64,000 nucleotides of DNA. Source: Escherichia coli (lineage in GTDB: Bacteria > Pseudomonadota > Gammaproteobacteria > Enterobacterales > Enterobacteriaceae). The stretch lies in NCBI RefSeq assembly GCF_045037415.1, contig NZ_CP173438.1; one strand, 5' to 3'. The translations under genes and the position numbers were made by a program. The notes beneath the pieces are model-generated. The model had not been told where the DNA came from and did no database searches. It saw nothing but the letters and a program-made list of their open reading frames with translations. Of the stretch, positions 12,824 to 64,000 are shown piece after piece. How positions within the stretch are numbered: position 1 is the first letter of the stretch; every line of letters starts with the position of its first letter.

Positions 12824-13547
12824 ATTTCTAGCCAAGCTGGCGATGAACCAGTCCTCTAAAAAATGGGTATAATCATAGTTTATTTACTAATTAAATTAAT
12901 ATAAAGTAATTACTTTATTATATGGAGAATTTATGAAAATGGGAAAAATTGCAGTTACTCCTAATAATGATAAAGCAGCCAGCCACTCTAAAGATGAAAA
13001 TTTAGCCACAAATACAATTAAGAAAAACGTAAAACCTAAATATGGCGATGCGGCATTTTTAGAGTACACTCGACTAATAGTTAACCACCCGAATTATTTT
13101 GGAATGCCAGATCCCTTTGGGGAAAAAGGTGAGATTCAATGGGAAGCTCCATCAAATAGGGCATCGGGGAAATTTAAACACACTCATCAACGGCGCTATG
13201 AATGGTGGAAAAATAAAGCCAGAAGTATTGGGATAGACCCTGACACTGAAAAAGCATGGATTAGTAAAACAGCTAAACTAATTCATCCACTTGGAGTTAA
13301 ACCATGCAAGAAATGCGGTAAAGAAATGGAATTATCTTACTCCTACCCAAATGAGCATTTCTTTTCTCGGGTTAGGAAACTTAATTATATAGATGAGACT
13401 TTTGAGCTATCTCAAAATGAACACATAGTTGATTTGTTGACTCGTTTAGATGATAGATTTGGTGAAAGAATATATTTAGATTTACCACATTTATTTTCTA
13501 CAAAATCCATCACGATTTGAAGTGGTCAACAAAAACTGGCCACCGAG

Positions 13548-14695
<1,148 letters not shown>

Positions 14696-15928
14696 TATGG
14701 CACCTGTGTTGTTCTGAGGTGAGCATATCACCTCTGTTCAGGTGGCCAAATTCAGTAAACCACTTCAATTCCAGATATTTCAAGCAATCTCGAAGCATGG
14801 ATTGAGTATCTAAAAGAACAATACATACCTCAAGAATCACGTATGCTTAGCCCTGGAGCCATGGCAAATCCTCCAGATCGTTTTGATGGATTTCATTCAT
14901 TTAACCGCTGTTGTCGCTCTATTGCTGATAAAGGAAGGACCAAAGAAAATCTTAAATCTTATGTTACTGACAGAAGAGTTTTCGAATATTGGGTGGATGG
15001 TGATTGGGTAGCTGCAGACAGGCTAATGGGCCAAGTTAGAACAAATAATATATTTATTAACGAGGAATGTTTGAATGCCGGAAATGGTGGTTTACATCCA
15101 ACTCCTTGCCAAGCAGATCACATTGGCCCAATCTCACTAGGGTTTTCCCATCGCCCACAATTTCAACTACTTTGCAAATCATGTAATAGTGCCAAAAACA
15201 ATCGTATGTATTTAAGTGATATAATCTCTTTATTAGAAGCTGAGAATGAAGGTCATACGGTTATTTCATGGTTCGCAGAAGAAGTATGGAATCGACTAAA
15301 ACACTCTGTAGATGATAGTGAAAAAGCCTTAAGACTAAGTAAAATACTACGTGATAATAGACATACATATATGAATCTTCTTAAAAAAATAATGGATGAA
15401 GGTTATTATACTTTCCTTGCAAGTCTTTTACATCTTGAGGTAGCCAATTATAACCCAATATTTGAGGGATTATGCATTTCAAATCATTTAACTCATTATA
15501 AATCATTAAAAAAAATAAAACGTGAATCAAAATATGCTGCTGTGCAAAAAACAAGACGAATCAGAATAGCATTTACTTCATTGAATGATTATCATAGAAA
15601 AGAAAATCGGAACGCATTTATTGTATCAAATGAATTATCTGAGAAGTTTTTCTCTGAAGCTATGGATAATTTAAAATCATTAAGTGAAATTACATCTTGC
15701 TTAGATGAAAAAATATCCGGAATAATATCTGAGAATTCAGATTCAAAAAATGAATTTCGAACAATCATTACAGATCTACGAGAAATAGTGACAAACAATA
15801 AAGAAAAATTCAACTTGATATTAAAATATCTAATATCAGGGATGAGCGAAATAGGAAAAGAACTGGAATCATATTGGGAAAATGATCGTTATGTTCGCTC
15901 AATCCCAGAAGAATTTATAGAGTAAGAC

Positions 15929-19790: not shown

Positions 19791-19901
19791 GACTCGATTT
19801 GCATACGGTATGGTGCTGCGTATTACCGTGAAGGAGATCGGTGAGTAACATCGATGGAGATCGGTTCGTGTCACTTTCACAGAACCGTTTTTAAATTACC
19901 T

Positions 19902-20651
19902 TCACTGATCTCCTTCGGTCAACGGAGATTGTATTTTCCGCATTGATTCTCCTTTAAGTTCGATCTTGATACTGCCATGAACCAGTCGATCTAGGATGGC
20001 ATCCGCATGTGTGGAGTCTCCGATCATTTTGTACCAGTTTTCCACCGGCAACTGGCTCACTACGATGATTGAGCCTCGTTGGTACATCAGATCCACTATT
20101 TCCAGCAGGTCGCTACGCTGTTCTGATGAGAGAGGTTCCAGCCCCCAGTCATCCAGAAGCAGCAGATCGCTATTATTCAGCCTGGTCAAAAGTTTGCTGT
20201 ATCTTCCATCAGCATGCCCCTGATAGCACTGTTCCATCAGCGCTTTAAGGCGATAATAGTAGACCTTGTATCCCTGTCGGCAGGCATTATGACCAAGTGC
20301 ACATGCCAGGAACGTTTTACCGCTGCCGGTGGCCCCGGTCAGTAAAATATTTTGTTTCAGGGTTAACCAGTTTCCCTGACTGAGTGAACGGATGAGGGCC
20401 CTGTCCAGCCCTCTATTGTTACGATAATCCAGCTTTGATAACTCAGCATTAAGTCTGAACCGTGCATGTTTGATCAGACGCTCTGCCTTCCTGTTTTCAC
20501 GGCAGGTTAGTTCTTCTGCTGTCAGTAATGACAGGCGTTCTTCGAAGCCCAGCTCCTGGTATGTGCCCGGTTGAGCAAGTTGCTTTTTAAGCGCATCACG
20601 GAAGCCGGTGAGTTTAAGTGCGGTCAGTTGTTCGTAAAGATGATTCATCAT
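19902..20651 (-). CDS. istB: IS21-family IstB ATP-binding helper protein
   Basis: 249 aa; Walker A LTGATGSGKTFLA, Walker B LLLLDDWG. Confidence 0.9.
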   Translation of the reverse strand: MMNHLYEQLTALKLTGFRDALKKQLAQPGTYQELGFEERLSLLTAEELTCRENRKAERLIKHARFRLNAELSKLDYRNNRGLDRALIRSLSQGNWLTLKQNILLTGATGSGKTFLACALGHNACRQGYKVYYYRLKALMEQCYQGHADGRYSKLLTRLNNSDLLLLDDWGLEPLSSEQRSDLLEIVDLMYQRGSIIVVSQLPVENWYKMIGDSTHADAILDRLVHGSIKIELKGESMRKIQSPLTEGDQ

Positions 20652-20662
20652 TGGATCCCGTA

Positions 20663-22204
20663 TCAGTGGTAATACTCACTGCCGCGTACGTTTTCGTGTT
20701 CCATCGTGGATAACAGATCTGGTTTTGGATCCTGAACAGGTTGTTTATCCAGACCTTTTTCCAGGATCGATTTAATACCTGACAGACGCCATACCTTTGT
20801 TTTCAGAGCTCTTGCACATGCTGCATTAAGTCTGGCTTTACTGTATTTTTTATGAAGGTTCAGGAGTCCAAGGCAGAAGCGATAGCTTTGTTCCGGATGT
20901 GGACGAGAGTTCAGTATATGAAGCACATAACTATGAGTTTCACTGCCTATGTGCCCCGCCCATTCCAGAAGACGCTCTGGCGTCCAGGTGGCATGCTGTC
21001 GATGAGCTTCAGGCATGTGCTCGTTGCGGGTACTGTAGCCATAAGTACGCTTGCGCGGGTGCACAGCAACCTCCTGCCCCTGATTGAAGAGTCTTACCAG
21101 TTCTCCGGAGATCCATGCTTCCAGTTGCTGGCCTAACAGCGAACATGGAACCGAGTAGTAATGTTTGTCGATTTCCACGTGGTAATCGGCATGAACTCTG
21201 ACTTTCTTCACCAGGGTGTAACTGTAACTGGCTTCAGGAAGAGGCTTCAGTGCGGGTTTATCAAGCTGGATGAAGAGTTCTGCACGTGAATAACCCAACT
21301 TCTGCATTATTTTGTTATTCAGTCTTTCCAGCAACTCCCGAATGCGCTGATTAAGCGATGCAAGGCTGTAGAAGATCTCATGCCTGATTCGGGCCATGAT
21401 CCAGCGTTCAACAACCTGAACGCCAACTTCAGCTTTGGCTTTATCTTTCGGTTTACGTGGCCGCGCAGGCAAAACTGCGACATTATAATGCTCAAGCATC
21501 TGCTGGTAGGTAGGGTTAACGTCAGGATCATACTTACATGCCCTGGATGTGGCGCTTTTCAGATTGTCCGGAACAACAAGTTCAGGAACGCCACCCAACC
21601 ACTGGAAGCAGCGAACATGACTCATCACCCAGTCTTCAAGCTGCTGAGACCAGGTGGCCTCTGCCCATGTGTAACTTGATGCCCCGAGAACAGCTACGAT
21701 GACCTGAGCAGTTCTTATTTCTCCGGTCTCAGGGTCGGTAACGCCAACGGTAGGTCCACAGTAATCAACGAAAAGTTTTTCGCCAGCTTTATGTACCTGA
21801 CGCATTGATGGTGAAGTGGTTTTGAGCCATTCACGGTACATCCGGCAGTAATGGTTATAGCTGTAAAAACCGCCTGGATTACGCTCACAGTATTCTTCCC
21901 AGAGTAGCTGCAGCGTCACGCATTTATTACGCAGTTCCCGGTGTACTGTAGCCCAGTCAGGCAGAGAGTGCTTCTTCATCTTAACCTGGGTCTGAAGGAA
22001 CGCATGTTTTAGTTTTGTATCATCCCATCCTGTAGGTAAGGGCCACTGCTTTATGCCAAGTTGAGCCGCCCGATTAGCATATCTGGATACAACGGAAGGG
22101 GAGATTGCAAGACTACGACCAATTTGTCGATGGCTGAGTCCAACACCGTATTTAAGCCTAAGAATTTCTTTAAGTTTTCTCATAGAAATTGGAACTGTTG
22201 GCAT
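20663..22204 (-). CDS. istA: IS21-family IstA transposase
   Basis: 513 aa; N-terminal HTH plus DDE integrase core. Confidence 0.9.
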   Translation of the reverse strand: MPTVPISMRKLKEILRLKYGVGLSHRQIGRSLAISPSVVSRYANRAAQLGIKQWPLPTGWDDTKLKHAFLQTQVKMKKHSLPDWATVHRELRNKCVTLQLLWEEYCERNPGGFYSYNHYCRMYREWLKTTSPSMRQVHKAGEKLFVDYCGPTVGVTDPETGEIRTAQVIVAVLGASSYTWAEATWSQQLEDWVMSHVRCFQWLGGVPELVVPDNLKSATSRACKYDPDVNPTYQQMLEHYNVAVLPARPRKPKDKAKAEVGVQVVERWIMARIRHEIFYSLASLNQRIRELLERLNNKIMQKLGYSRAELFIQLDKPALKPLPEASYSYTLVKKVRVHADYHVEIDKHYYSVPCSLLGQQLEAWISGELVRLFNQGQEVAVHPRKRTYGYSTRNEHMPEAHRQHATWTPERLLEWAGHIGSETHSYVLHILNSRPHPEQSYRFCLGLLNLHKKYSKARLNAACARALKTKVWRLSGIKSILEKGLDKQPVQDPKPDLLSTMEHENVRGSEYYH

Positions 22205-22917
22205 AGGTATCCTTTACCGGAATGGCAAAAGATACAGATCAACACACCTGTGAAGTTCCAATAACATTGATGGAGATCACTGAATAACAAAATGAGTCAA
22301 AAGTGATCTCCATCGATGTTATTCAGCGATCTGTTCAAATGTTATTACCCGATCTCGATGGAAGTTATTGAGTGATCTCCTTTCATGAAAATACGCAGGT
22401 GCGAAGGCCGGACTCAAACATGCGATTTAACCTCATGATTTAAAATTGTTAATAATAAACAACACCATCCTATACCAACACAGATACCAACACGAAAAAT
22501 CACTGGTTTTCGGCATCGAACCAGGACAATCAGGTCCTGATTGAGATACCGAGCTCTGTTACTCGTCATCTTCCTCGACAGGCTCCATTGCATCAAGTGG
22601 TACTCGCACCATCGCGATAGAACCAATCCGGATAAAAGCATCTTCCCCATCTATATCGGTTAACTGATATCGCTTACTTGATGCCGGATAATTGTGTCGA
22701 TTGGCAACAGTGTACTCTTTCGTACAGCCAGAATGTGGCAGACTGAGGTGGAATAGATAACGTCCGTATGCCCGCTGACCACCTCCGGGCGGGAGAGTGT
22801 GGTATCTGACATCATCATTTTTCCTTTCTGTTTATAAATGAAAATGCCAGCCGTGTTCAGGCTGACGTCAGGGAAGTGAAATCGGGTGAGTGATCTTCAC
22901 TGGTTCTGGTACAAAAG

Positions 22918-58875: not shown

Positions 58876-59920
58876 CAAATAACCGAAGTATTACTTGCAG
58901 TAATCGGGGGAAGCATCCGGGGTTTTATTCAACAGGCTGTAGATCACTGACTGCGTCTGTTGGCCGTCCACTTCACGCGTCATTCGACCAGAGTAAATAT
59001 TGATGATTACTAGATTCGTGTATTTTATCAGGCATTTTACTTGCGAATAAATCCCCTTGCTATCCAGCGAAACCACACAGGTAGCTATTACCATATGTGG
59101 TAATACACTAGTTACAGGAAAAATATGCAAGTTCCGCAATACGTTGTGTGTTGCTCCTTAGCCAGGATCTTTTCTTCCATGCGAGATATGACAACAATTT
59201 TGAGGAAGGATGTTCGTAACTGGTAGAGTTACTACAACAAGCATGGGAGGCTCTGACTCTGACAGACATTGTACTGTGGAATGTTGTTACAGGTTGGGGC
59301 GGCAACCGTGCCAGGAAACCATGAGCCGTTCACGGCATTAAAGGCCACACTTCAGTCGTTTACATTCCCTATGGTGGCAGGCATCTTCCATTAAGGCGTC
59401 AGAGCGTTACCAACGTTATGTTGTCATGGCTCATCTTTCATAGTCGATGCTTATCTGGTGGCTGAAGCTAGCCGCAGATAAAGAGTGTGAAGTTGATACC
59501 ATGGAGTGGAGTGACGTGCAGGCAGGAGATTCGCTCTATGCAGGGTTGTGAGATGAATTCAAACCGGCTGGCAGCGCCAGTGATATTCGAAGATTCGTCC
59601 GGTTGTTACCCAGTATGCATTAAAAACCCATACATTATGGACAATATAACGGCTTCTACAACAAGGAAGTGCCTGTTTACCATCCGGGTGTAATGACTCA
59701 CCTTTGTGGGCTTTTGCCCGTCGCGCTCTTAACGTTGAAGACATTCTCTGCCTGCCGATTCAGGACTGCGACAAAAGCCATATCTGGCTACTGGTCAAGG
59801 ATGACCAGCGTCTGGAGTAGGTGATAAGCCAAATAGATAAGCTGGAATATGTGGTGAAAGTGCAACGTAATCAGTCCAACCCGACGATGTTTAACAAGAT
59901 TGTGGTGTTTTTTCAGTAAG

Positions 59921-60703
59921 TCATTCGTCTTCTGAATCAGGTGTAATGATCTTTACAGAACCATTCTGGCAGTGCGTAACATAATCTGCCGGTAACGGAC
60001 GATCGCTAATCAGAACGTCAAATGCAGAGATCGGTGCGAGGCTGGCAGAGGCCACTTCATCGAACAACGCGTGGCGGGCGAGCAAAATTTTCCGTAGTCC
60101 ACGGTTCATCGCTTTACGCTTAGTGGCAAGATCTTCAGGGTTAAACCAGCTGACGCCAAAGTGATTATGCACACCGCTGGCGGAAATAAATATTTTTCGC
60201 GGATTGAGAGAGTCTAATGGCGAAGAGTTACTGGCATCGTAAAAAGCATCACTTCTGGCACGATACGTACCACCACAAAGTATTGCTGTTACATTAGGCT
60301 TTTCATTCAACGCAACAAAGACGCGATGTGAGTAACAGATGCCGGTGAAGGTGATTGCATCCGGAATCATGCTTATAACGAGTGGTATCTCCTGGCCATT
60401 ATCAAAGAAGATCAGATCATTTTCATTAACCATTCCGGCAGCCAGAATTGCAATAGGTAAGTCATCACGATGATTTTTTGGAACGTCATGGATTACTGGC
60501 ATGGATGGCGCGGGTTTATTCACCATTACAATATAGCCACCCAGTAGGGTCAGTGGCAGAGGTTCATCTTCCTGATGGAGATCGCGACGAATAGTCATTA
60601 CAGAAACTTCCAGCATTCGCGCTGCGTCTTTCAAATGGATTCTGTCGGTTTTCTTAAGCAGTTCCATCAAACGTCGGATACGCTCTTTTTGCTTCGTTTC
60701 CAT
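59921..60703 (-). CDS. deoQ: DeoR-family transcriptional regulator (deoxyribose operon repressor type)
   Basis: 260 aa; N-terminal HTH (IHLKDAARMLEVSVMTIRRDL); divergent from the deoK-deoP genes. Confidence 0.7.
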   Translation of the reverse strand: METKQKERIRRLMELLKKTDRIHLKDAARMLEVSVMTIRRDLHQEDEPLPLTLLGGYIVMVNKPAPSMPVIHDVPKNHRDDLPIAILAAGMVNENDLIFFDNGQEIPLVISMIPDAITFTGICYSHRVFVALNEKPNVTAILCGGTYRARSDAFYDASNSSPLDSLNPRKIFISASGVHNHFGVSWFNPEDLATKRKAMNRGLRKILLARHALFDEVASASLAPISAFDVLISDRPLPADYVTHCQNGSVKIITPDSEDE

Positions 60704-61008
60704 CAACTCTCTCTCCGTAAGAATGTTATAAAAATAACATTTTGGCGTTAGTAAACATTGTTTTCATTACCATACTATACGACCGCCCCTTTGAAATGAA
60801 AAGGGTATAGGCTGCTGAGTTTTGGGCACTAATCTTGTTAGGTTGCTTATGATTAGATAGTGTTGGCCTGAGTGATGAGACTGGAAGTCTATTAAATAAA
60901 CATCGGGTTGATGTGCTAATCGCGATCTCAGTCACAAATGATGCAAAAGTAACATGCTAATGTTATTTAAATACCATTGTTATGCGAAAGTTTATAAGAG
61001 GTAGTGAA

Positions 61009-61929
61009 ATGGACATTGCAGTTATTGGTTCCAATATGGTGGATCTCATTACTTACACTAATCAGATGCCTAAAGAAGGAGAAACTCTGGAAGCACCTGC
61101 CTTCAAAATCGGATGTGGTGGGAAAGGTGCTAATCAAGCGGTGGCGGCGGCTAAATTGAATTCAAAAGTCCTGATGCTGACTAAAGTAGGTGATGATATT
61201 TTTGCGGATAATACTATTCGTAATCTTGAATCATGGGGAATTAATACCACTTATGTTGAGAAGGTCCCCTGTACCAGCAGTGGTGTTGCACCGATCTTTG
61301 TTAATGCCAACTCGAGCAATAGTATATTAATAATTAAGGGAGCGAATAAATTTCTTTCCCCGGAAGATATCGATCGAGCTGCAGAAGATCTGAAAAAATG
61401 CAAATTGATCGTTTTACAACTGGAAGTTCAACTGGAAACAGTTTACCACGCGATTGAGTTTGGTAAGAAAAATGGTATTGAAGTGTTATTAAATCCGGCT
61501 CCGGCATTGCGTGAGTTAGATATGTCTTATGCCTGCAAATGTGATTTCTTTATCCCGAATGAAACAGAACTGGAAATATTAACCGGTATGTCGGTTGATA
61601 CTTATGATCATATTCGTTTGGCCGCACGTTCGTTAGTTGATAAAGGGCTGAACAATATTATTGTTACCATGAGCGAAAAAGGCGCATTATGGATGACCCG
61701 CGATCAGGAAGTCCATGTTCCTGCATTCAAAGTAAATGCTGTTGATACTAGTGGCGCTGGTGACGCATTTATTGGTTGCTTTTCCCATTATTATGTTCAA
61801 AGCGGTGATGTTGAAGCCGCTTTGAAAAAAGCCGCTCTCTTTGCCGCTTTCAGCGTCACAGGGAAAGGTACGCAATCATCTTATCCGAGTATTGAACAAT
61901 TTAATGAATTTTTAACCTTAAACGAATAA
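61009..61929 (+). CDS. deoK: Ribokinase-family sugar kinase (deoxyribokinase-like)
   Basis: PfkB motifs GGKGANQAVAAA and DTSGAGDAF; ATG at 61009. Confidence 0.8.
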   Translation: MDIAVIGSNMVDLITYTNQMPKEGETLEAPAFKIGCGGKGANQAVAAAKLNSKVLMLTKVGDDIFADNTIRNLESWGINTTYVEKVPCTSSGVAPIFVNANSSNSILIIKGANKFLSPEDIDRAAEDLKKCKLIVLQLEVQLETVYHAIEFGKKNGIEVLLNPAPALRELDMSYACKCDFFIPNETELEILTGMSVDTYDHIRLAARSLVDKGLNNIIVTMSEKGALWMTRDQEVHVPAFKVNAVDTSGAGDAFIGCFSHYYVQSGDVEAALKKAALFAAFSVTGKGTQSSYPSIEQFNEFLTLNE

Positions 61930-61956
61930 TCATCCTGCACAGTTAAAGGTAGCACT

Positions 61957-63273
61957 ATGAACGATAAAAACATCATTCAGATGCCTGATGGGTATCTGAA
62001 TAAGACTCCCTTGTTCCAGTTTATTTTGTTATCGTGTTTATTCCCGCTATGGGGATGCGCAGCTGCATTAAATGACATATTAATCACTCAATTCAAAAGT
62101 GTATTTTCGCTAAGTAACTTTGCTTCAGCATTGGTGCAGAGCGCATTTTATGGAGGTTATTTTTTAATTGCAATACCAGCATCCCTTGTGATTAAAAAGA
62201 CCAGTTATAAGGTGGCAATTTTAATTGGCCTGACGCTGTATATTGGTGGTTGTACACTTTTTTTCCCTGCCTCGCATATGGCAACCTACACTATGTTCCT
62301 TGCAGCTATTTTTGCGATTGCGATTGGCCTGAGTTTCCTTGAAACTGCAGCGAACACATACAGTTCAATGATCGGTCCAAAAGCCTATGCCACATTGCGG
62401 CTCAATATCAGCCAGACCTTTTATCCGATTGGTGCTGCGTCTGGTATTTTATTGGGCAAATATCTGGTTTTCTCCGAGGGGGAAAGCCTTGAGAAGCAGA
62501 TGTCCGGAATGAACGCCGAGCAAATTCACAACTTTAAGGTGCTGATGTTAGAGAACACCCTTGAACCGTATAAGTATATGATTATGATTCTGGTTGTGGT
62601 CATGGTGTTGTTCCTTTTAACCCGCTTCCCAACCTGTAAAGTGGCACAGACAAGTCACCATAAACGCCCGTCAGCAATGGATACGCTGCGCTATCTGGCT
62701 AAAAATTCGCGCTTTCGTCGTGGTATTGTGGCTCAATTCCTTTATGTGGGTATGCAGGTCGCAGTATGGTCATTTACCATCCGTCTGGCACTGGAGTTGG
62801 GCGATATCAACGAACGTGATGCTTCAAACTTCATGGTCTACAGCTTTGCCTGCTTCTTTATTGGCAAGTTTATAGCCAACATCCTTATGACACGTTTTAA
62901 TCCGGAAAAAGTCCTAATTCTCTATTCCGTTATAGGGGCGCTGTTTCTGGCATATGTTGCACTGGCTCCAAGTTTCAGCGCGGTCTATGTCGCCGTCCTG
63001 GTAAGTGTTTTGTTTGGCCCTTGCTGGGCGACGATCTATGCAGGAACACTGGATACAGTTGATAATCAACATACAGAAATGGCAGGAGCAGTCATTGTTA
63101 TGGCTATTGTTGGCGCAGCGGTGGTTCCGGCAATTCAGGGGTATATTGCAGATATGTTCCACTCACTACAGCTTTCATTCCTGGTTTCTATGCTCTGTTT
63201 TGTCTATGTCGGTGTCTACTTCTGGCGTGAAAGCAAAGTACGTAATGCACTGGCTGAAGTCACAGAGTCCTGA
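61957..63273 (+). CDS. deoP: FucP-type MFS sugar:H+ symporter (deoxyribose permease-like)
   Basis: 438-aa 12-TM MFS protein with FucP-like features. Confidence 0.8.
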   Translation: MNDKNIIQMPDGYLNKTPLFQFILLSCLFPLWGCAAALNDILITQFKSVFSLSNFASALVQSAFYGGYFLIAIPASLVIKKTSYKVAILIGLTLYIGGCTLFFPASHMATYTMFLAAIFAIAIGLSFLETAANTYSSMIGPKAYATLRLNISQTFYPIGAASGILLGKYLVFSEGESLEKQMSGMNAEQIHNFKVLMLENTLEPYKYMIMILVVVMVLFLLTRFPTCKVAQTSHHKRPSAMDTLRYLAKNSRFRRGIVAQFLYVGMQVAVWSFTIRLALELGDINERDASNFMVYSFACFFIGKFIANILMTRFNPEKVLILYSVIGALFLAYVALAPSFSAVYVAVLVSVLFGPCWATIYAGTLDTVDNQHTEMAGAVIVMAIVGAAVVPAIQGYIADMFHSLQLSFLVSMLCFVYVGVYFWRESKVRNALAEVTES

Positions 63274-63284
63274 GGAGAATCGTT

Positions 63285-64000
63285 ATGAGTACGCGTATTT
63301 ATTTGTGGCGGGCGCTTTTTGGCGAAAAACCTCGTATCTTGCTGGAAAATAGTGATTTTACTGTCACGTCTTTTCGCTATGACAGTGGTGTCGAGGGGCT
63401 TAAAATTGCAAACAGTCGTGGACATTTAATTATTCTTCCCTGGATGGGGCAGATGATTTGGGATGCGCAATTTGATGGACACAGTCTCACCATGTGCAAT
63501 ATGTTTCGCCAGCCTAAACCGGCGACAGAGGTGATAGAAACCTATGGCTGTTTTGCCTTTCATTCAGGTTTGCTGGCTAATGGCTGCCCATCTGCGGAAG
63601 ATACTCATCTGCTACACGGTGAAATGGCCTGTGCCGCGATGGATGAAGCATGGATGGAATTAGAGGGAGATATGTTACGCCTTACCGGGCGTTACGAGTA
63701 TGTAATGGGGTTCGGGCATCATTATCTGGCTCAGCCAACAGTGGTCCTTCACAGATCCTCTACATTGTTCGATATTAAGATGGCCGTAACCAATCTGGCT
63801 TCTGTAGATATGCCACTACAATATATGTGCCACATGAATTATGCATATATACCAAATGCTACGTTCAGCCAGAATATACCGGACGAAATATTAAGGTTGC
63901 GTGAATCAGTACCTTCGCATGTTAATCCCACCGCTCAGTGGCTGGCGTTTAATCAACGGATTATGCAGGGAGAAGCCTCTCTGTCGACGCTGAATCAACC
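63285..64000 (+). CDS. deoX: DeoX-like protein (aldose-epimerase-like), 3' end outside window
   Basis: ATG at 63285, open to the window end; follows deoP as in the deoQKPX arrangement. Confidence 0.6.
   Translation, partial: MSTRIYLWRALFGEKPRILLENSDFTVTSFRYDSGVEGLKIANSRGHLIILPWMGQMIWDAQFDGHSLTMCNMFRQPKPATEVIETYGCFAFHSGLLANGCPSAEDTHLLHGEMACAAMDEAWMELEGDMLRLTGRYEYVMGFGHHYLAQPTVVLHRSSTLFDIKMAVTNLASVDMPLQYMCHMNYAYIPNATFSQNIPDEILRLRESVPSHVNPTAQWLAFNQRIMQGEASLSTLNQ

What the first reader, a model, noticed from the sequence alone, without database searches (positions are those of the whole stretch)
59921..64000. deoQ-deoK-deoP-deoX deoxyribose utilisation operon at the right edge
A DeoR-family regulator lies divergent to a ribokinase-family kinase, a FucP-type permease and a DeoX-like gene. 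This matches the deoxyribose catabolic operon known from Salmonella and pathogenic E. coli and absent from K-12. It is a second island-borne salvage pathway alongside the mtnK cluster.
Basis: partly seen in the sequence, partly recalled or inferred. Interest (0 to 1): 0.3.

Follow-up and report, generated by a model that had tools for sequence, protein, structure and literature searches.

The report
Known deoxyribose-use operon deoQKPX
This is the already described deoQ-deoK-deoP-deoX gene set that lets about 30% of E. coli strains (many of them pathogenic), like Salmonella, take up the DNA sugar 2-deoxyribose and use it as food; it is intact here, sits in the leuX genomic island, and is ordinary for this kind of strain.

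Summary
A DeoR-family regulator (59921-60703, minus strand) lies divergent to a PfkB kinase (61009-61929), an MFS permease (61957-63273) and a DUF4432 gene (63285 onward, cut by the window end).

- The kinase is 96% identical to the kinase of the Salmonella ilvN-deoQKPX-uhpA locus and only 37% identical to E. coli RbsK.
- It has Met10 and Tyr16 where RbsK has Asn14 and Asn20.
- Gene order, a CRP-like site and three TGTTA-N6-TAACA operator-like sites are conserved in position across about 40 enterobacterial species.
- About 29% of complete E. coli genomes carry the module. A lab strain has ilvN next to uhpA with nothing between them.

New but modest points:
- DeoX is confidently predicted to have a galactose-mutarotase fold, so a deoxyribose mutarotase or pyranase role is likely. 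This is untested.
- The E. coli module carries a 242-bp ilvN stub and a uhpA stub. The ilvN stub is 91% identical to E. coli's own ilvN and 77% identical to Salmonella's. Third codon positions of the deo genes are only about 50% identical to Salmonella. The published idea of transfer from Salmonella enterica therefore looks doubtful.
- RefSeq names the genes "rbsK" and "fucP", which is misleading.

Novelty: already known. Interest: low.

The parts
59679..59919 (+). 3' fragment (242 bp) of an ilvN gene, a pseudogene with a 1-bp deletion and an internal TAG. It is the left stub of the captured ilvN-deoQKPX-uhpA segment.
   Evidence: Homology to Salmonella and Citrobacter chromosomes starts exactly here. 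The fragment is 90.5-90.9% identical to E. coli's own ilvN, 77% to Salmonella and 82% to Citrobacter. RefSeq annotates an 'acetolactate synthase small subunit' pseudogene.
59921..60703 (-). deoQ: DeoR-family repressor, 260 aa.
   Evidence: HTH_DeoR plus DeoRC domains. It scores 230 bits on the NCBIfam DeoR model, just under the 244-bit cut-off. It is 38% identical to K-12 DeoR, with 'MTIRRDL' in the N-terminal HTH region identical, and 84% identical to the Salmonella neighbour of deoK. The sequence is identical to UniProt Q67FX0_ECOLX.
60724..60739 (.). Operator-like palindrome O1, TGTTATAAAAATAACA, in the deoQ leader.
   Evidence: Perfect match to TGTTA-N6-TAACA. A site occurs at the equivalent distal position, -285 to -320 from the deoK ATG, in most Enterobacteriaceae loci. 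The same pattern finds the two DeoR operators upstream of K-12 deoC.
60774..60802 (-). Candidate deoQ promoter (TTTTCA-17-TATAGT).
   Evidence: Consensus scan only. The TATAGT block (ACTATACG on the + strand) is conserved with Salmonella. The transcription start was not mapped here.
60921..60936 (.). CRP-like site, CGCGATCTCAGTCACA, about 40 bp upstream of the inferred deoK transcription start.
   Evidence: AATCGCGATC-N3-GTCACAAATG is nearly invariant in 18 species. It has 2 mismatches to TGTGA-N6-TCACA. Function is inferred.
60939..60954 (.). Operator-like site O2, TGATGCAAAAGTAACA, over the -35 region of the deoK promoter.
   Evidence: Lies at -70 from the deoK ATG, the same position in about 40 species. 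It has 2 mismatches in this window and 1 in most other species.
60956..60976 (.). Candidate -10 element (GCTAAT here, GATAAT in other species) overlapped by operator-like site O3, TGTTATTTAAATACCA (60961-60976).
   Evidence: O3 lies at -48 from the ATG, conserved in position in about 40 species. O2 and O3 start 22 bp apart.
61009..61929 (+). deoK: deoxyribokinase, 306 aa, PfkB/ribokinase family.
   Evidence: 96% identical to the Salmonella kinase at the ilvN-uhpA locus and 37% to K-12 RbsK. Met10 and Tyr16 are conserved in all DeoK-like homologs and are Asn in RbsK. PfkB E = 5e-63.
61957..63273 (+). deoP: MFS permease of the FucP/FHS type, 438 aa; the presumed deoxyribose:H+ symporter.
   Evidence: 96% identical to the Salmonella deoP-position gene and 36% to K-12 FucP. 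TIGR00885 scores 324 bits.
63285..64000 (+). deoX: DUF4432 protein with a mutarotase-like fold; the first 238 of 337 codons. The gene continues about 298 bp past the window end.
   Evidence: 83% identical to Salmonella deoX. AF2 model pLDDT 96.6. The best PDB matches are aldose 1-epimerases: 3TY1 at TM 0.82, then the GalM family. It follows deoK-deoP in 70 of 80 species loci.

Best explanation
This is the deoQKPX (deoK) regulon for growth on free 2-deoxy-D-ribose.

**Proposed mechanism**
- DeoP, an MFS proton symporter, imports deoxyribose.
- DeoX, a mutarotase-fold protein, probably speeds interconversion of the sugar's ring and anomer forms, so that the kinase receives the form it can use. 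This step is inferred.
- DeoK phosphorylates the sugar with ATP to deoxyribose-5-phosphate.
- The core enzyme DeoC, encoded elsewhere in the genome, splits that product into glyceraldehyde-3-phosphate and acetaldehyde.
- DeoQ is transcribed divergently. It represses deoKPX by binding three TGTTA-N6-TAACA operators: two over the deoK promoter and one in its own leader.
- A class-II-like CRP site makes expression sensitive to catabolite repression.
- The half-sites are the same as those of DeoR operators, so cross-repression by DeoR is plausible.

**Shown here:** gene content, orthology to the Salmonella locus, the Met10/Tyr16 positions that differ from RbsK, conserved regulatory motifs, the DeoX fold, and the presence of deoC.

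**Taken from the literature:** enzyme activity, the growth phenotype and the colonisation advantage.

**Inferred:** the DeoX activity, the DeoP substrate, and the exact promoter positions.
For: **Orthology**
- The kinase, permease, regulator and DeoX are 96%, 96%, 84% and 83% identical to the four genes between ilvN and uhpA in Salmonella, with the same order and orientation.
- The kinase is only 37% identical to RbsK.
- Met10 and Tyr16 replace RbsK Asn14 and Asn20 in all DeoK-like homologs. PMC6452873 reports that K-12 evolved on deoxyribose acquired RbsK N20Y plus N14D or N14S.

**Salmonella DeoK function**
- deoK is needed for Salmonella growth on deoxyribose (PMC13432705).

**Regulatory motifs**
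- Two of the three matches to TGTTA-N6-TAACA (up to 1 mismatch) in the 64-kb window fall within the 305-bp intergenic region.
- The three sites and the CRP-like site are conserved in position in about 40 species.
- The same pattern finds the DeoR operators at K-12 deoC.
- The DeoQ N-terminal HTH region closely resembles DeoR's.

**DeoX**
- The AF2 model has pLDDT 96.6, and the top PDB matches are all aldose 1-epimerases.
- deoK-deoP-deoX are linked in 70 of 80 species loci, with deoC adjacent in Aeromonas.

**Downstream step and E. coli literature**
- deoC is present in 5423 of 5426 E. coli genomes.
- PMC5382810, PMC6455142, PMC7545054, PMC3147056 and PMC6218438 describe the deoK operon in E. 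coli islands. They say it confers deoxyribose use and a colonisation advantage.
Against: - No experiment on this strain is available, so expression and growth are assumed.
- The primary papers (Tourneux 2000, Christensen 2003, Bernier-Febreau 2004, Martinez-Jehanne 2009) are not in the held library. The Met10 mutagenesis result, the three DeoQ operators, the DeoR and CRP control and the 324-bp spacer are therefore recalled from memory, not read.
- O2 has 2 mismatches in this window.
- The E. coli intergenic region is about 20 bp shorter than the Salmonella one and diverges in its middle part.
- DeoK also phosphorylates ribose (PMC13432705), so substrate range is not strictly exclusive.
- DeoX is cut by the window end. 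Its completeness in this exact genome is inferred from 100% identical genomes.
Confidence: 0.93

Rival explanations
1. The cluster is a second ribose or L-fucose utilisation system, as the RefSeq names 'rbsK ribokinase' and 'fucP L-fucose:H+ symporter' imply. The kinase would act mainly on ribose and the permease on fucose.
For: - Both proteins score above the curated cut-offs of the NCBIfam equivalog models: TIGR02152 at 369 bits against 300, and TIGR00885 at 324 bits against 280.
- RefSeq names them accordingly.
- Salmonella DeoK does phosphorylate ribose and can support growth on it (PMC13432705).
Against: - Identity to the true E. coli RbsK and FucP is only 37% and 36%, against 96% to the Salmonella deoK and deoP genes.
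- The ribose-contacting Asn14 of RbsK is Met here.
- There are no fucI, fucK or fucA genes and no rbsD or rbsACB genes in the cluster.
- The operators are of the DeoR type.
- In Salmonella, deoK is required for growth on deoxyribose but not on ribose (PMC13432705).
Confidence: 0.04
2. The module is a decaying island passenger. The genes look intact but are silent or non-functional in this lineage, like the neighbouring vpe genes and the ilvN and uhpA stubs.
For: - The surroundings are full of IS elements and pseudogenes.
- The adjacent vpe-type PTS gene is truncated in the matching genome.
- IS insertions within the module are seen in some genomes: H1-H7 match in two pieces around IS1, IS5, ISEc52 or ISEc23.
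Against: - All four reading frames are full length.
- Substitutions against Salmonella are concentrated at third codon positions: 49-55% identity there, against 92-99% at second positions. This is the signature of purifying selection.
- The same holds between the two E. coli alleles.
- Promoter, CRP and operator motifs are retained.
Confidence: 0.03

Closest known systems
Salmonella enterica deoQKPX regulon (deoK deoxyribokinase; Tourneux 2000, Christensen 2003; recalled, not readable here)
   Same: - The same four genes in the same order and orientation.
- Proteins 83-96% identical.
- The same three operator-like sites and CRP-like site at the same distances from the deoK ATG.
- The same 306-aa kinase with Met10.
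   Different: - In Salmonella the genes lie between intact ilvN and uhpA. Here they lie in the leuX island, with only stubs of ilvN and uhpA.
- DNA identity is only about 80%, and third codon positions are about 50% identical.
- The intergenic region is about 20 bp shorter (302-305 bp depending on the deoQ start codon, against 324 bp in L003).
deoK operon of pathogenic E. coli islands (PAI of AL862 at pheV; 55989, CFT073, NCTC 86 ROD 40, LAC PAI)
   Same: This is the same module. The literature describes it in tRNA-associated islands next to the vpe operon (PMC5382810, PMC6455142, PMC7545054). A vpe-type PTS remnant follows deoX in the genome that matches this window. The DeoQ sequence is identical to a UniProt E. 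coli entry, Q67FX0.
   Different: - Here the island is at leuX rather than pheV.
- vpe is disrupted by an IS66-family element.
- At least two alleles circulate in E. coli. In one search, the best place per record was at least 99% identical in 845 records and 95-99% identical in 774 records (one search compares the two alleles).
E. coli RbsK / rbsDACBKR ribose system
   Same: - The same PfkB fold and catalytic motifs, GGKGANQ and the DTxGAGD anion hole.
- 170-bit match to PDB 1RKD-type chains.
- There is some substrate overlap: RbsK supports deoxyribose growth when overexpressed or mutated (PMC13432705, PMC6452873).
   Different: - 37% identity.
- Met10 and Tyr16 instead of Asn14 and Asn20.
- An MFS symporter rather than an ABC transporter.
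- A mutarotase-fold DeoX rather than the RbsD pyranase.
- A DeoR-type rather than a LacI-type repressor.
E. coli DeoR / deoCABD operon
   Same: - DeoQ is a DeoR paralog, at 38% identity with a closely similar N-terminal HTH region.
- The operators share the TGTTA-N6-TAACA half-sites.
- The pathway converges on DeoC.
   Different: - DeoQ falls below the DeoR equivalog cut-off, at 230 bits against 244.
- The inducer is presumably deoxyribose itself rather than deoxyribose-5-phosphate. This is recalled, not tested.
Galactose mutarotase (GalM) / aldose 1-epimerase superfamily, for DeoX
   Same: Predicted beta-sandwich fold. The top Foldseek matches are 3TY1, B. subtilis GalM, YphB, L. lactis GalM and YeaD. 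Invariant His93, His111 and His183 are reminiscent of the His/His/Glu active site.
   Different: - No sequence-level match to any PDB chain or to E. coli GalM by profile comparison.
- Only 8-15% identity in the structural alignments.
- The catalytic residues were not mapped.
- The substrate is unknown.

Membership tests
deoQKPX deoxyribose regulon (Salmonella type) | Four genes: deoQ divergent from deoK-deoP-deoX. | tested here: met
   ORF map. The same order and orientation occur in Salmonella L002 and L003 and in 70 of 80 species loci.
deoQKPX deoxyribose regulon (Salmonella type) | Each product is orthologous to the Salmonella gene rather than to a paralog. | tested here: met
   84%, 96%, 96% and 83% identity to the Salmonella DeoQ, DeoK, DeoP and DeoX positions. 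Identity to DeoR, RbsK and FucP is 38%, 37% and 36%.
deoQKPX deoxyribose regulon (Salmonella type) | Chromosomal position between ilvN and uhpA. | tested here: not met
   Here the module lies in the leuX island. However, it carries a 242-bp ilvN stub and a uhpA stub, which shows that it came from such a position. Position is not essential to the function.
deoQKPX deoxyribose regulon (Salmonella type) | Divergent promoters with three DeoQ operators and CRP control. | tested here: inconclusive
   Three TGTTA-N6-TAACA-like sites and a CRP-like site are present and conserved in position. Binding and regulation were not tested. The published operator coordinates could not be read.
Deoxyribokinase DeoK (EC 2.7.1.15-like, PfkB family) | PfkB/ribokinase fold with the catalytic Asp and anion-hole motif. 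| tested here: met
   PF00294 E = 5e-63. DTSGAGDAF is conserved, and D252 is invariant in the alignment with RbsK. PMC13432705 reports that an aspartate is critical for activity in RbsK, DeoK and RikA.
Deoxyribokinase DeoK (EC 2.7.1.15-like, PfkB family) | Met at position 10, where RbsK has the ribose-binding Asn14. (Specificity determinant according to Tourneux 2000; recalled.) | tested here: met
   GSNMVD in the window protein and in all DeoK-like homologs, against GSINAD in RbsK. PMC6452873 links Asn14 to ribose binding and reports N14 and N20Y changes on adaptation to deoxyribose.
Deoxyribokinase DeoK (EC 2.7.1.15-like, PfkB family) | ATP-dependent phosphorylation of 2-deoxy-D-ribose, and a requirement for growth on it. 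| not testable with these tools
   Shown for Salmonella DeoK (PMC13432705). Reported for E. coli carriers of the operon in the literature cited by PMC5382810 and PMC3147056.
Aldose 1-epimerase (mutarotase) superfamily, for DeoX | Galactose-mutarotase beta-sandwich fold. | tested here: met
   AF2 pLDDT 96.6, pTM 0.94. Foldseek top hit 3TY1, E = 2e-15, TM 0.82, followed by GalM structures.
Aldose 1-epimerase (mutarotase) superfamily, for DeoX | Catalytic His/Glu pair positioned as in GalM. | tested here: inconclusive
   His93, His111, Asn170 and His183 are invariant, and Glu245 and Arg286 nearly so, in 55 homologs. No residue-level superposition was available. Profile comparison with E. coli GalM gave nothing.
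L-fucose:H+ symporter FucP (the RefSeq name for the permease) | Ortholog of FucP within a fucPIK context. | tested here: not met
   36% identity to K-12 FucP. There are no fuc genes nearby. The protein is above the TIGR00885 cut-off, so it belongs to the FucP-type (FHS) subfamily, but it is not FucP itself.

The most novel reading that the evidence does not exclude
The E. coli deo module may not be a loan from Salmonella enterica, as the literature says. It may instead be a relic of an ancestral Escherichia-lineage ilvN-deoQKPX-uhpA locus. On this reading it was cut out once, with ilvN and uhpA stubs, into a mobile island, lost from its native site, and has since spread and recombined among tRNA-associated islands. 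Its fourth gene, deoX, would encode a still uncharacterised deoxyribose mutarotase or pyranase that plays the role RbsD plays for ribose.
Probability: 0.45. Interest if true: 0.35.

Novelty: already known. Interest (0 to 1): 0.15.

Why it matters
Deoxyribose use is a documented fitness trait of pathogenic E. coli. According to the literature cited in PMC3147056, PMC6218438 and PMC6455142, it gives a competitive advantage in gut colonisation. Recognising the operon correctly therefore matters for metabolic models and strain typing, because automated annotation calls these genes "ribokinase" and "fucose permease".

Nothing here changes the known biology. There are two small additions:
- A confident structural assignment of DeoX to the mutarotase fold, which gives a testable function for the one uncharacterised gene.
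- Sequence evidence that the donor of the E. coli module was closer to Escherichia than to Salmonella.

Tried and rejected
- **Primary papers.** Look-ups of Bernier-Febreau 2004, Christensen 2003, Tourneux 2000 and Martinez-Jehanne 2009 by DOI or PMC id all failed because the papers are not held. Details from them are marked as recalled.
- **Single-sequence AF2 of DeoX.** It gave a useless model with pLDDT 36.6. It was redone with a 55-sequence alignment.
- **Sequence search of DeoX against PDB chains.** No hit even at E = 10.
- **hhalign of the DeoX profile against E. coli GalM.** No meaningful alignment, so catalytic residues could not be mapped.
- **Rfam scan of 56000-64000.** No RNA family found.
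- **tRNA scan of the window.** None found. The island's tRNA (leuX) lies outside the window.
- **Terminator scan.** Nothing credible between the genes, which is consistent with one deoKPX transcript.
- **Rejected: a ribose or fucose system.** See the rival explanations.
- **Rejected: recent transfer from Salmonella.** DNA identity is about 80%, and the ilvN stub is E. coli-like.
- **Rejected: gene conversion by the resident ilvN as the reason the stub looks E. coli-like.** Differences from the resident ilvN are scattered and there are no identical tracts. Both island alleles share the same truncation point, 1-bp deletion and TAG stop.

Full report
**What is there**

- A 260-aa regulator on the minus strand, 59921-60703.
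- A 305-bp intergenic region.
- Three genes on the plus strand: a 306-aa kinase (61009-61929), a 438-aa permease (61957-63273) and a gene that starts at 63285 and is cut by the window end after 238 codons.

The genes on the plus strand are closely spaced (27 and 11 nt), and no terminator-like site lies between them. The last three therefore look like one transcript.

Pfam and NCBIfam assign the following:
- HTH_DeoR plus DeoRC to the regulator.
- PfkB/ribokinase to the kinase.
- FucP-type MFS to the permease.
- DUF4432 to the fourth gene.

The stretch is 100% identical to many E. coli chromosomes. In one of these, NZ_CP023826.1, the fourth gene is 337 aa. The window as a whole matches that chromosome apart from IS differences and one 2.6-kb insertion.

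**Is it the deoxyribose operon?**

The kinase sequence falls in a 90%-identity cluster that includes Salmonella proteins which UniRef names deoxyribokinase. One of these, P0124, is 96% identical to the window kinase.

The Salmonella contigs that encode P0124 show the arrangement ivbL-ilvB-ilvN | DeoR-family gene (minus) | kinase-MFS-DUF4432 (plus) | uhpA-uhpB-uhpC-uhpT. As I recall it, this is the published position of deoQKPX.

Identities to the four Salmonella genes are 84% (DeoQ), 96% (DeoK), 96% (DeoP) and 83% (DeoX). By contrast:
- The kinase is 37% identical to K-12 RbsK.
- The permease is 36% identical to K-12 FucP.
- The regulator is 38% identical to K-12 DeoR.

The result goes the other way.

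In an alignment with RbsK, the window kinase and all DeoK-like homologs, down to 65% identity in Vibrio, Pasteurellaceae and Bacillus, have Met10 and Tyr16 where RbsK has Asn14 and Asn20. PMC6452873 reports that K-12 evolved to grow on deoxyribose acquired RbsK N20Y together with N14D or N14S, and that Asn14 is a ribose-binding residue. From memory, Tourneux et al. 2000 identified Met10 as the residue that distinguishes deoxyribokinase. I could not read that paper.

PMC13432705 confirms that Salmonella DeoK is a deoxyribose kinase that also accepts ribose, and that deoK is required for growth on deoxyribose.

**Regulatory region**

The pattern TGTTA-N6-TAACA with up to one mismatch occurs three times in the 64-kb window. 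Two of those matches lie in the 305-bp deoQ-deoK spacer, at 60724-60739 (perfect) and 60961-60976. A weaker third copy lies at 60939-60954.

The same pattern picks out TGTTAGAATTCTAACA and TGTTAGAATACTAACA upstream of K-12 deoC. These are the classical DeoR operators, by established knowledge.

The N-terminal HTH region of DeoQ is close to that of DeoR, and the segment 'MTIRRDL' is identical.

Across the species loci fetched with the kinase, operator-like sites recur in about 40 Enterobacteriaceae. They lie at -70 and -48 from the deoK ATG, with a third at about -285 to -320.

An alignment of the proximal 125 bp shows a nearly invariant AATCGCGATC-N3-GTCACAAATG. This is CRP-like, with the TCACA half-site perfect. 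Both operator sites follow it, flanking a GATAAT or GCTAAT -10 candidate.

If transcription starts near 60968-60970, the CRP-like site is centred at about -40. This is the class II position. O2 and O3 would then cover the -35 and -10 elements.

This fits what I recall of Christensen et al. 2003:
- Divergent promoters in a 324-bp spacer.
- Three DeoQ operators.
- Repression by DeoQ and DeoR.
- Catabolite repression of deoKPX.

The Salmonella spacer in L003 is indeed 324 bp. Binding and transcription start sites were not tested here.

**The pathway's last step**

deoC, the deoxyribose-phosphate aldolase gene, is present in 5423 of 5426 complete E. coli genomes. The kinase product therefore has a route into central metabolism in essentially any E. 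coli.

**DeoX**

No PDB chain matches DeoX by sequence, and a single-sequence model failed.

An exhaustive search found 479 relatives. Fifty-five full-length ones were aligned. His93, His111, Asn170 and His183 were invariant, and Glu245 and Arg286 nearly invariant.

With this alignment AlphaFold2 gave pLDDT 96.6 and pTM 0.94. Foldseek against the PDB returned only aldose 1-epimerases at the top:
- 3TY1 from Klebsiella, TM 0.82.
- B. subtilis GalM.
- E. coli YphB.
- L. lactis and human GalM.
- Salmonella YeaD.

deoK-deoP-deoX occur in that order in 70 of the 80 species loci. In Aeromonas australiensis, deoC follows deoX directly.

Some genome annotations already call a gene next to deoK a 'deoxyribose mutarotase (deoM)' (PMC3899980). 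I found no experimental work on it.

The most likely role for DeoX is a mutarotase or pyranase that feeds the kinase, analogous to RbsD for ribose. This is an inference from fold and gene linkage only.

**Distribution and context**

In one search, 1593 of 5426 complete E. coli genomes (29%) carry at least 80% of the query 59700-64000.

Nearly all other genomes match only about 240 bases. That match is their own ilvN gene hitting an ilvN fragment at 59679-59919. In a BL21-type lab strain, ilvN and uhpA are adjacent with a 74-bp spacer and no deo genes.

In the genome identical to the window, the surroundings are as follows:
- Beyond deoX there is an IS66-family element, then a truncated vpe-type PTS gene.
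- About 14 kb further on lie a truncated integrase and tRNA-Leu (leuX).
- On the other side are acuR, a BCCT transporter, the fec operon, a CP4-like remnant, restriction systems, and the mtnK-mtnA-aldolase cluster next to yjhU.

PMC10986504 places the mtnK cluster, known as the DHAP shunt, at the end of the leuX island. 'Island-borne alongside the mtnK cluster' is therefore correct.

The literature places the deoK operon in tRNA-associated islands of pathogenic and some commensal E. coli, next to vpe. It links the operon to competitiveness in the gut (PMC5382810, PMC6455142, PMC7545054, PMC3147056, PMC6218438).

**A side result on origin**

The module has truncated flanks: a 242-bp 3' piece of ilvN on the left, and the deoX-uhpA spacer with the first ~65 bp of uhpA on the right. 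The right flank lies just outside the window.

More than 40 Enterobacteriaceae species have the four genes between intact ilvN and uhpA.

The best DNA identity of the E. coli module to any species representative is about 80% (Citrobacter 80.2%, Salmonella 79.2%). Third codon positions are 49-55% identical to Salmonella. This is the same level of divergence as E. coli's own ilvB, ilvN and uhpA show against Salmonella, at 82-85%.

The ilvN stub is 91% identical to E. coli's own ilvN, but only 77% identical to Salmonella's and 82% to Citrobacter's.

Two E. coli alleles of the module (this window and strain SCU-111) share the same truncation point, a 1-bp deletion and an internal TAG in the stub. 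They differ by 8% in the stub and by 5-8% at third positions of deoQ, deoP and deoX, while deoK is nearly identical.

This points to a single capture from a chromosome closer to Escherichia than to Salmonella, followed by long diversification and recombination. PMC5382810, citing Bernier-Febreau 2004, says the operon is thought to have come from Salmonella enterica. The data here do not favour a recent transfer of that kind.

No extant donor was found. No Escherichia species representative appeared among the 80 loci kept from the 167 relatives found.

**Verdict**

This is a well-known operon in a typical place for an extraintestinal-type E. coli.

The caveats are:
- RefSeq names the genes rbsK and fucP.
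- The DeoX activity is still inferred.
- The phenotype of this strain was not tested.

Noticed in passing
window 59679-59919, and L001:12600-12735 (just beyond the window end): The deo module is flanked by a 242-bp ilvN 3' stub and a uhpA 5' stub. The ilvN stub is 91% identical to E. coli's own ilvN but 77% identical to Salmonella's. The deo genes are only about 80% identical to any other species. This argues against the published idea of recent transfer from Salmonella enterica and for a donor in or near Escherichia.
   Followed up: yes
window 59679-64000 versus L005 (E. coli SCU-111): Two alleles of the module circulate in E. coli. In one search, the best place was at least 99% identical to this window in 845 records and 95-99% identical in 774 records. 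They are mosaic: deoK 99.7%, deoP 97.8%, deoX 97.1%, deoQ 96.0% and the ilvN stub 92% identical. Both share the same stub truncation point, frameshift and stop codon.
   Followed up: partly
window 61009-63273: RefSeq/PGAP names deoK 'rbsK ribokinase' and deoP 'fucP L-fucose:H+ symporter'. Both score above the NCBIfam equivalog cut-offs (TIGR02152, TIGR00885) although they are only 36-37% identical to the true RbsK and FucP. This is a systematic mis-annotation that hides the deoxyribose trait.
   Followed up: yes
It corresponds to the DHAP shunt for 5'-deoxynucleoside use, described at the end of the leuX island in ExPEC (PMC10986504, PMC12632272).
   Followed up: partly
window 58408-59678: About 1.3 kb between acuR and the ilvN stub has no intact gene. 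There is only a 36-aa 'alcohol dehydrogenase' fragment (about 58588-58695, minus strand). Parts of this stretch are shared with other islands at 93-99% identity, and the left junction of the deo module differs between strains (L005).
   Followed up: partly
window 19816-22398: About 2.6 kb is present in the window but absent from the otherwise nearly identical strain 4/4 chromosome. An ISEc52 copy also sits at a different place (13518-14767). These are strain-level island rearrangements.
   Followed up: no
loci L064-L073 (Proteus) and L060 (Providencia stuartii): These species have deoQ and deoK homologs but no adjacent deoP or deoX. Aeromonas australiensis (L061) has deoC directly after deoX. 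Bacillus methanolicus (L076) has deoC-like, deoP and deoX genes upstream of deoK.
   Followed up: no
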